A stretch of 64,000 nt of DNA, taken from the NCBI GenBank assembly GCA_009914755.4, contig CP068257.2:41536001-41600000 (forward strand), written 5' to 3'. Each line of letters starts with the position of its first letter. The first letter of the stretch is position 1. The notes under the pieces were generated by a model. The model ran no database searches. It was not told the DNA's origin and saw only the letters and a program-made list of their open reading frames with translations. Positions 24,383 to 24,904 of this stretch are shown here, piece after piece. This stretch comes from the human T2T-CHM13v2.0 reference genome, Homo sapiens. A program made the position numbers and the translations under genes.

Positions 24383-24626
24383 GTAAGACGTGGCCCGTGG
24401 TGCTGGCCTCTCCTCGCTGCTCAGAGGGTGGTGGCCTCGGTGGGTGGAGAGCGATGGACTCTGGTCTTGCTCCGTCAGGCAGGTGGCCTCGTCCCACTTC
24501 ATCCCCTTGCAGAGGCTGGGCGAGAGCCTGTGTCCCCACTGCAGCCACGTGGCAGAGCTTCCCCTGGCACTGGGGAGAGGGTGGACAAGGGAGCAGCCTG
24601 AATCCACCTTTGCTTTCCTCCATCAG

Positions 24627-24695
24627 CTCATGACCCATGTGTGCTTTGTAAGGCACCAGCCACATACTGGAAACCCCAAGAGCAGCCCATCCAGG
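24627..24695 (+). other. CRYAA: Vestigial alphaA-ins insert exon (pseudo-exon) in CRYAA intron 1
   Basis: Acceptor TTTCCTCCATCAG, then in-frame LMTHVCFVRHQPHTGNPKSSPSR (23 codons). The donor region reads CCAG|GCATGC (GC, not GT), and the AG-to-GC distance is 68 nt, not a multiple of 3. This is consistent with the rodent alternative insert exon being non-functional in human. Confidence 0.55.
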
Positions 24696-24904
24696 CATGC
24701 GTGGTGGCGAATGCCAGCTCCCGGGTTCCTCTGGTCTCCTGAGTCCCGGAGACCTGGGAGCAGGTGGGGGTCATAGTCCTGAAAGCCAGAGAGCAGGGCG
24801 TTCCTAGCACCTCCTCCAATGAGCTCGGCCTGCCCACGGCTAGCAAAGCTCTTGGCAAGTTTACTTAGGTGCCCTGCCAAGGCTAAAAGGACAGGCAATG
24901 GACG

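What the first reader, a model, noticed from the sequence alone, without database searches (positions are those of the whole stretch)
24600..24700. Vestigial alphaA-ins insert exon (pseudo-exon) in CRYAA intron 1, with a non-GT donor and a length out of frame
Rodents have an alternatively spliced 'insert exon' in intron 1 that adds 23 residues between residues 63 and 64 (alphaA-ins). The corresponding human sequence is not used. Here an acceptor-like TTTCCTCCATCAG is followed by an open 23-codon stretch LMTHVCFVRHQPHTGNPKSSPSR in the exon 1 phase. The donor position reads CAG|GCATGC (GC instead of GT). The distance from the acceptor AG to that GC is 68 nt, not divisible by 3. The sequence therefore shows a decayed cassette exon with a conserved coding potential, a broken splice donor and a probable 1-nt length change.
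Basis: partly seen in the sequence, partly recalled or inferred. Interest (0 to 1): 0.55.

Follow-up and report, generated by a model that had tools for sequence, protein, structure and literature searches.

The report
Known dead insert exon in CRYAA

Summary
CRYAA lies on the + strand, with exon 1 ending at 24382 in phase 0. In intron 1, TTTCCTCCATCAG| (24614-24626) precedes LMTHVCFVRHQPHTGNPKSSPSR (24627-24695). CAG|GCATGC sits at 24692-24700, 68 nt after the acceptor.

The block is the homologue of the mammalian alphaA-ins insert exon and the only part of intron 1 conserved as far as marsupial and monotreme. It is already known. Wistow 2012 describes the human pseudoexon, citing Jaworski & Piatigorsky 1989. 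A public 127-aa record already carries this exact peptide.

One correction: GC is not the lesion. Mouse, bat, manatee, Tasmanian devil and echidna all have a 69-nt exon ending AAG|GCAAGT, so the GC donor is ancestral.

The lesions are:
- a 1-nt deletion shared by human, macaque, langur and titi monkey;
- donor +4 A>T in the catarrhines;
- donor +6 T>C in human.

Using CAG|GC would shift the frame to a TGA in exon 2, 80 nt before the last junction.

Side finding: in species with an intact exon, third codon positions are unusually conserved (3/23 variable against 73/104 in exons 1-2). These exons also share a predicted hairpin that the anthropoid copies lack.

The parts
24194..24382 (+). CRYAA exon 1 coding part (codons 1-63), ending in phase 0 with donor GAG|GTAAGA
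   Evidence: Translation. Joined with exons 2 and 3 it gives a 173-aa alphaA-crystallin.
24604..24626 (+). Polypyrimidine tract and AG acceptor of the pseudo-exon (CCACCTTTGCTTTCCTCCATCAG)
   Evidence: 15 of 17 pyrimidines at -20..-4, against 9/17 for the exon 2 acceptor. CATCAG is identical in human, macaque, langur, mouse, bat, manatee, Tasmanian devil and echidna; titi monkey reads CGTCAG but keeps the AG.
24627..24694 (+). Pseudo-exon body, 68 nt, homologous to the 69-nt alphaA-ins insert exon. The conceptual 23-codon reading runs to 24695.
   Evidence: BLAST and MAFFT against 9 mammalian CRYAA loci. A 1-nt gap in the last 9 nt is shared by all four anthropoids. The peptide matches the mammalian consensus at 16/23 residues.
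24648..24653 (+). Internal GTAAGG (context TTT|GTAAGG). It was created by the anthropoid T>G change that turns ATG (Met9) into AGG.
   Evidence: It is a weak donor-like site. If used with the 24626/24627 acceptor it would give an in-frame 21-nt insert. This is speculative and no evidence of use exists.
24695..24700 (+). Remnant of the ancestral GC donor. Human reads GCATGC against ancestral GCAAGT (+4 A>T, +6 T>C).
   Evidence: Alignment. Predicted U1 duplex is -4.5 kcal/mol against -5.9 for the ancestral site and -9.6/-11.1 for the exon 1 and exon 2 donors. Flank log-odds are 4.4 against 8.7 bits.
24701..24725 (+). Intronic flank downstream of the donor that still aligns with mouse (to 24725) and Tasmanian devil (to 24717)
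   Evidence: Whole-intron BLAST and alignment.
25612..25734 (+). CRYAA exon 2 (codons 64-104)
25652..25654 (+). TGA that comes into frame if the 68-nt pseudo-exon is included. It lies 80 nt upstream of the exon 2/exon 3 junction.
   Evidence: The product would be 99 aa and would lack the alpha-crystallin domain.
27166..27375 (+). CRYAA exon 3 coding part with stop codon

Best explanation
The block at 24627-24694 is the dead remnant (pseudo-exon) of the mammalian alphaA-ins cassette exon of CRYAA.

In the ancestral state a 69-nt phase-0 exon has a strong acceptor (YYYCCTCCCATCAG|). Its donor is deliberately weak but otherwise perfect, AAG|GCAAGT. It is spliced into a minority of transcripts and adds 23 residues between Glu63 and Val64.

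In the anthropoid lineage the exon lost one base near its 3' end, making it 68 nt. The donor then decayed further. Catarrhines carry +4 A>T, human adds +6 T>C, and titi monkey has lost the +1 G altogether.

A GC donor already mismatches U1 snRNA at +2 and depends on the flanking positions to compensate. The human site GCATGC therefore keeps only isolated pairs downstream of the junction, and it should be ignored in favour of direct exon 1 to exon 2 splicing.

If it were used occasionally, the 68-nt insert would shift the frame to a TGA in exon 2, 80 nt before the last exon junction. By the 50-55 nt rule that transcript should be degraded by nonsense-mediated decay.

Shown here: homology, position, phase, the ancestral GC donor, the shared deletion, the donor substitutions and the frameshift consequence.

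Inferred: that the weakened donor is the cause of skipping, and the nonsense-mediated decay fate.
For: - Gene structure and phase.
- 23-aa inserts of the form LMTHMWFVMHQPHAGNPKNNPxK lie between ...GISE and VRSDRD in many mammals (rodents, bats, lagomorphs, lemurs, manatee, marsupial, monotremes).
- Genomic DNA from Mus pahari, Pteropus, Trichechus, Sarcophilus and Tachyglossus all reads CATCAG|69 nt|GCAAGT.
- Human, Macaca, Trachypithecus and Plecturocebus share a 1-nt gap and show altered donors.
- The block is the only part of intron 1 conserved as far as marsupial and monotreme.
- The donor is weaker by U1 duplex energy and by flank log-odds.
- Frameshift and position of the premature stop.
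- No excess conservation within anthropoids.
- An nr/PRF record 'alphaA crystallin [Homo sapiens]', 127 aa, equals exon 1 + LMTHVCFVRHQPHTGNPKSSPSR + exon 2.
- GC donors are intrinsically weaker than GT and are compensated by a stronger consensus at the remaining positions (PMC3167603).
- GC donors are enriched at alternatively spliced sites (PMC2490688).
Against: - No expression data could be examined here. 'Not spliced in human lens' rests on one review's account of a 1989 paper that I could not read.
- The exact position of the deleted base is ambiguous. Gap placements after CCC or inside AAG are equally parsimonious. Placing it at the donor G costs one more mismatch and would describe the same sequence as a 69-nt exon with a deleted donor G.
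- The donor-strength measures are a simple U1 duplex energy and a position matrix recalled from the literature, not MaxEntScan. The difference in duplex energy is modest (-4.5 against -5.9 kcal/mol).
- Macaque GCATGT scores about as well as the ancestral site on duplex energy (-6.1), but through a shifted pairing register.
Confidence: 0.93

Rival explanations
1. The remnant is still used at a low level as an unproductive ('poison') exon. The intact acceptor pairs with the weak GC donor in a small fraction of transcripts, which are then removed by nonsense-mediated decay.
For: - The acceptor has a better pyrimidine tract than exon 2 (15/17 against 9/17).
- GC is retained at the donor.
- The premature stop lies 80 nt before the last junction.
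Against: [quoted passage not shown]
- The donor has lost +4A and +6T, which GC donors normally need.
- There is no excess conservation in anthropoids that would indicate a maintained function.
Confidence: 0.08
2. The block persists in primates because it now serves another role, such as an intronic transcriptional or RNA element, rather than as a decaying exon.
For: - It is the only deeply conserved stretch of intron 1.
- In species with an intact exon the synonymous positions are unusually constrained.
- Those species also share a predicted hairpin.
Against: - Conservation boundaries coincide with the splice signals of the working exon.
- Among anthropoids 6.5-29% of other 68-nt intron windows are at least as well conserved.
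- The predicted hairpin is lost in human, macaque and titi monkey, with z-scores near 0.
- Titi monkey shows 13 base changes in the first 20 codons.
Confidence: 0.04
3. A 21-nt in-frame mini-exon (24627-24647, LMTHVCF) is produced with the internal TTT|GTAAGG site created in anthropoids.
For: The T>G change gives GTAAGG. Its predicted U1 duplex is -4.8 kcal/mol against -1.4 for the ancestral GTAATG. The product would stay in frame.
Against: - The exonic side (TTT) is poor and the flank log-odds are only 0.7 bits.
- A 21-nt exon would need strong definition signals.
- No such isoform is among the 120 best of 420 homologues.
- The literature reports no insert form in human.
Confidence: 0.02
4. 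The open 23-codon stretch behind an AG is a chance feature of a GC-rich intron.
For: The frame is open for 129 codons here, so openness alone means little.
Against: - 82-99% nucleotide identity to the insert exon of eight mammals, E = 1e-13 to 1e-30.
- Same intron, same phase and same acceptor.
Confidence: 0.005

Closest known systems
Human CRYAA pseudo-exon (Jaworski & Piatigorsky, Nature 1989; summarised in Wistow 2012, PMC3554465)
   Same: - Same gene and same intron.
- Same description: remnant of the insert exon, largely intact, not spliced.
- A literature-derived nr/PRF protein record carries exactly exon 1 + LMTHVCFVRHQPHTGNPKSSPSR + exon 2.
   Different: Nothing of substance; this is the same object. 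The PRF record reads the block as 23 codons joined in frame to exon 2. That is a conceptual translation, not a spliceable product, because no donor-like dinucleotide follows codon 23 (CA at 24696-24697).
Functional alphaA-ins insert exon of rodents, bats, lagomorphs, manatee, marsupials and monotremes
   Same: - Position between codons 63 and 64, phase 0.
- CATCAG acceptor.
- 16/23 residues identical to the consensus.
- GC at the donor.
   Different: - 68 nt instead of 69 nt.
- Donor GCATGC instead of GCAAGT.
- Substitutions at otherwise invariant residues: Trp6>Cys, Met9>Arg, Ala14>Thr.
- The predicted internal hairpin is lost.
GC-AG introns at alternatively spliced exons
   Same: The ancestral exon is a textbook case. 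Its donor is weak because of the +2 C mismatch to U1, and a perfect consensus elsewhere (AAG|GCAAGT) compensates. This fits the partial inclusion reported for rodents (10-20%, from my memory of the older literature). General properties are taken from PMC3167603 and PMC2490688.
   Different: The human copy no longer has the compensating consensus at +4 and +6.
Independently decayed insert exon in ruminants (goat)
   Same: Homologous block in intron 1 of a species whose copy has also decayed.
   Different: Goat lost the acceptor AG (CCTCCA|CTTATG) and much of the coding similarity, so the route to inactivation differs. The goat 196-aa 'hypothetical protein' carrying an insert (P0026) is therefore likely an annotation artefact.

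Membership tests
alphaA-ins insert exon of mammalian CRYAA (orthology) | Lies in CRYAA intron 1, entered in phase 0 after codon 63 | tested here: met
   Exon 1 ends at 24382 after 63 complete codons. The block starts at 24627 within intron 24383-25611.
alphaA-ins insert exon of mammalian CRYAA (orthology) | Nucleotide and peptide similarity to the insert exon of species that carry it | tested here: met
   82-99% identity, E = 1e-13 to 1e-30. 16/23 residues match the consensus. It is the only part of intron 1 conserved as far as marsupial and monotreme.
alphaA-ins insert exon of mammalian CRYAA (functional member) | 69 nt (23 codons) between the acceptor AG and the donor, keeping exon 2 in frame | tested here: not met
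   68 nt from 24627 to the base before GC. The 1-nt gap is shared with macaque, langur and titi monkey. Inclusion brings a TGA in exon 2 into frame.
alphaA-ins insert exon of mammalian CRYAA (functional member) | Donor AAG|GCAAGT | tested here: not met
   Human reads CAG|GCATGC. GC is kept, but +4 and +6 are changed.
alphaA-ins insert exon of mammalian CRYAA (functional member) | Pyrimidine-rich tract and AG acceptor | tested here: met
   15/17 pyrimidines followed by CAG.
alphaA-ins insert exon of mammalian CRYAA (functional member) | Inclusion in lens mRNA and presence of the longer protein | not testable with these tools
   No expression data are available here. [quoted passage not shown]
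Published human CRYAA pseudo-exon | Same sequence as the human pseudo-exon on public record | tested here: met
   P0083, 'alphaA crystallin [Homo sapiens]' (nr, PRF source), contains the identical 23-residue translation between exon 1 and exon 2.
Compensated GC-AG donor | GC at +1/+2 with near-perfect consensus at -2..-1 and +3..+6 | tested here: not met
   Ancestral flank score is 8.7 bits and human 4.4 bits. Human keeps only isolated U1 pairs at +3 and +5. The requirement itself comes from PMC3167603.
NMD-targeting (poison) exon | Inclusion creates a stop more than 50-55 nt upstream of the last exon junction | tested here: met
   TGA at 25652-25654, 80 nt before the exon 2/3 junction. The rule itself is established knowledge.
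NMD-targeting (poison) exon | Actual, regulated inclusion in transcripts | not testable with these tools
   No RNA data are available.

The most novel reading that the evidence does not exclude
The working insert exon may be held in place mainly by RNA-level selection rather than by its peptide.

In five species with an intact exon, only 3/23 third codon positions vary, against 73/104 in exons 1-2 of the same genes (Fisher p = 7e-6). All five share a predicted internal hairpin (ATGTGGTT...AACCACAT), which the anthropoid copies have lost.

On this reading, loss of that RNA element and of donor +4/+6 killed the exon in anthropoids, not the GC dinucleotide.

Because the human acceptor is intact, a single C>T at 24696 would create CAG|GTATGC. 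That change might re-exonise the 68-nt block as a frameshifting cataract allele.
Probability: 0.3. Interest if true: 0.4.

Novelty: already known. Interest (0 to 1): 0.15.

Why it matters
The feature is a classic example of a dead exon inside a working gene, and nothing about its identity is new.

Practical value of the re-examination:
- It corrects a tempting misreading. A GC donor is not in itself a defect. Here it has been the conserved working signal since before monotremes and therians diverged.
- It pins the anthropoid lesions to specific bases: the 1-nt deletion, 24698 T and 24700 C.
- It marks 24695-24700 as a place where a single variant could reactivate a frameshifting exon in a cataract gene. 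Wistow 2012 raised that possibility in general terms.

The unusual conservation of synonymous sites in the working exon deserves a wider comparative check.

Tried and rejected
- **Primary papers not held.** Jaworski & Piatigorsky 1989, van Dijk 2001, Jackson 1991 and Thanaraj & Clark 2001 could not be read. Statements about them rest on Wistow 2012 or on my memory, and are marked as such.
- **Literature searches.** Searches for a published statement of the GC donor in crystallin genes, or for human inclusion data, found nothing usable.
- **DNA look-ups.** Urocitellus and Lepus isoforms had no record. No ape, lemur or tarsier DNA was obtained, so lemur evidence is predicted protein only (P0001, P0002).
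- **The ORF as evidence: rejected.** The frame is open for 129 codons.
- **Residual constraint in anthropoids: tested, not found.** 6.5%, 12% and 29% of other 68-nt intron windows are at least as similar to human in macaque, langur and titi monkey.
- **Covariation support for the hairpin: inconclusive.** 95.7% of cells pair, but 9 of 14 pairs never vary and shuffles match the observed scores.
- **Goat 196-aa 'insert' protein as evidence of a working exon: rejected.** The acceptor AG is absent.
- **Extended predicted isoforms ('K|AS...').** In Mus pahari (GC) and Sarcophilus (GT) these correspond to a donor-like site further downstream; the other species were not checked against DNA. They were not taken as evidence against the GC donor.

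Full report
**What is in the window.**
The region holds CRYAA on the + strand.
- The coding part of exon 1 is 24194-24382. It has 63 codons ending ...GISE and the donor GAG|GTAAGA.
- Exon 2 is 25612-25734.
- The coding part of exon 3 is 27166-27375.
- Spliced together they give a 173-aa alphaA-crystallin.

Exon 1 ends in phase 0, so any cassette exon in intron 1 must be a multiple of 3 to keep the frame.

**The observation.**
- TTTCCTCCATCAG lies at 24614-24626.
- The following 23 codons (24627-24695) read LMTHVCFVRHQPHTGNPKSSPSR.
- CAG|GCATGC lies at 24692-24700.
- The distance from the acceptor to that GC is 68 nt.

The open frame alone carries no weight, because this frame stays open for 129 codons.

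**Homology.**
I searched a hypothetical exon 1 + insert + exon 2 + exon 3 protein against the large protein collection. It returned many mammalian alphaA-crystallins with a 23-residue insert between ...GISE and VRSDRD. The consensus insert is LMTHMWFVMHQPHAGNPKNNPxK. The hits come from rodents, bats, lagomorphs, lemurs (predicted proteins), manatee, a marsupial and both monotremes.

I fetched the genomic loci for nine species. For eight of them:
- The human 69-nt block matches their intron 1 at 82-99% identity, E = 1e-13 to 1e-30.
- When the whole human intron 1 is used as query, the stretch around 24588-24725 is the only part that aligns with Tasmanian devil and echidna.

The ninth, goat, gave no significant BLAST match; its copy was located by translation.

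The block is therefore the orthologue of the insert exon, not a chance ORF.

**The donor: the main correction.**
In Mus pahari, Pteropus, Trichechus, Sarcophilus and Tachyglossus the exon is exactly 69 nt and is bounded by CATCAG| and |GCAAGT. In these species no GT occurs at the exon end. A 23-residue insert followed directly by VRSDRD therefore requires cleavage at AAG|GC.

The GC donor is thus the ancestral state, conserved from monotremes to placentals. It has a perfect consensus at every other position.

This fits what is known of GC donors. They are intrinsically weak because of the +2 mismatch with U1. They are compensated by a stronger consensus elsewhere (PMC3167603). They are enriched at alternatively spliced sites (PMC2490688).

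From memory, the older crystallin literature (King & Piatigorsky 1983) already noted this GC. I could not verify that here.

**What actually decayed.**
- Human, macaque, langur and titi monkey share a 1-nt gap within the last 9 nt of the exon. The deletion therefore predates the catarrhine-platyrrhine split.
- Predicted lemur proteins keep 23 in-frame residues.
- The exact deleted base is ambiguous. It could lie after CCC or within AAG. At one extra mismatch it could be the donor G, which would describe the same sequence as a 69-nt exon without a donor.
- The three catarrhines read GCATG(T/C), a +4 A>T change. Human alone has +6 T>C.
- Titi monkey reads CTGAGG and has lost the +1 G.
- Predicted pairing with the 5' end of U1 falls from -5.9 to -4.5 kcal/mol. 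The constitutive donors of this gene give -9.6 and -11.1.
- A flank log-odds score falls from 8.7 to 4.4 bits. Its position matrix is recalled from the literature and is approximate.
- The acceptor is intact and pyrimidine-rich, 15/17 against 9/17 for exon 2.
- On the coding side the anthropoids changed residues that are invariant elsewhere: Trp6>Cys or Gly, Met9>Arg, Ala14>Thr.

**Consequence of use.**
Splicing at CAG|GC would insert 68 nt. That shifts the frame and reaches TGA at 25652-25654, 80 nt upstream of the exon 2/3 junction. The product would be 99 aa and would lack the alpha-crystallin domain. By the established 50-55 nt rule the transcript would be a target of nonsense-mediated decay. 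This step is an inference.

**No sign of retained function in primates.**
Across intron 1, 6.5% of other 68-nt windows are at least as similar to human in macaque, 12% in langur and 29% in titi monkey. The apparent 'conserved coding potential' fits slow neutral drift of a short sequence.

Goat shows an independent route to inactivation, having lost its acceptor AG.

**Comparison with the literature.**
Wistow 2012 (PMC3554465) states that in primates the alternative form was abandoned. [quoted passage not shown] It adds that mutation could conceivably restore splicing. It cites Jaworski & Piatigorsky 1989 and van Dijk et al. 2001.

A public protein record from the PRF literature database, 'alphaA crystallin [Homo sapiens]', has 127 aa. 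It is exactly exon 1 + LMTHVCFVRHQPHTGNPKSSPSR + exon 2.

The finding is therefore already known. Only the attribution of the defect to 'GC instead of GT' is wrong.

**Side observation on the working exon.**
In the five species with an intact exon, variable sites fall 6, 8 and 3 at codon positions 1, 2 and 3. In exons 1 and 2 of the same genes they fall 17, 6 and 73 (Fisher p = 7e-6). Only 13% of third positions vary in the insert exon, against 70% in the constitutive exons. First and second positions vary more (30% against 11%).

That is the signature of nucleotide-level rather than peptide-level constraint.

A possible cause is a dense set of exonic enhancers needed to activate a GC donor; one search reports such a dependence for another GC site.

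Another possible cause is a conserved hairpin:
- All five intact exons fold into the same stem, ATGTGGTT...AACCACAT, with z-scores from -0.45 to -2.6.
- The three anthropoid copies folded (human, macaque, titi monkey) do not, with z-scores near 0.
- Covariation support is inconclusive, because most pairs never vary.

**Verdict.**
The feature is already known, and interest is low.

Noticed in passing
L001:1439-1507, L004:789-857, L005:1011-1079, L006:1127-1195, L007:768-836 (homologous to window 24627-24694): In five mammals with an intact insert exon, third codon positions are the least variable (variable sites 6, 8, 3 by codon position). Exons 1 and 2 of the same genes give 17, 6, 73 (Fisher p = 7e-6). 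This suggests RNA-level constraint on the cassette exon.
   Followed up: partly
L001:1451-1477 and the equivalent positions in L004-L007; window 24636-24668 for the decayed human counterpart: A predicted internal hairpin (ATGTGGTT ... AACCACAT) is shared by all five intact insert exons (z-scores -0.45 to -2.6). It is lost in human, macaque and titi monkey. The covariation test was inconclusive.
   Followed up: partly
L001:1508-1531 (Mus pahari): A second donor-like AAG|GCAAGC lies 18 nt downstream of the insert-exon donor AAG|GCAAGT. It explains the predicted 202-aa isoform (insert + ASYMAK). Several species have similar extended predictions, which may be annotation artefacts or minor real variants.
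   Followed up: no
L009:964-1032 (Capra hircus): The goat copy of the insert exon has lost the acceptor AG (CCTCCA|CTTATG) and much of the coding similarity. This is an independent inactivation. The deposited 196-aa 'hypothetical protein' that includes it is probably a mis-prediction.
   Followed up: partly
window 28801-32907: A 4.1-kb tandem array of about 465 copies of the 9-mer ACACCACAC (82% matches) starts about 1.4 kb downstream of the CRYAA stop codon. It accounts for the extreme GC and AT skew of 28-34 kb.
   Followed up: no
window 38831-39832: A complex TG-rich minisatellite region with nested periods of 26-135 nt (units such as GTGTCCCTGTGAGTG) and a degenerate (TG)n tract.
   Followed up: no
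window 25215-25400 (CRYAA intron 1): A low-complexity CCAGCC/AACCAGCC repeat region gives multiple staggered matches to manatee intron 1 and single matches to bat and mouse. The repeat seems to be an old feature of the placental intron.
   Followed up: no
window 23324-23395: Two exact copies of GCTCGAGGCGTTAC lie 58 nt apart, within a stretch rich in GTTACAT/ATGTAAC motifs, about 0.8 kb upstream of the CRYAA start codon.
   Followed up: no
window 24906-24926 (CRYAA intron 1): A run of 11 C followed by ACCCAACCAC; such homopolymers are commonly length-polymorphic.
   Followed up: no
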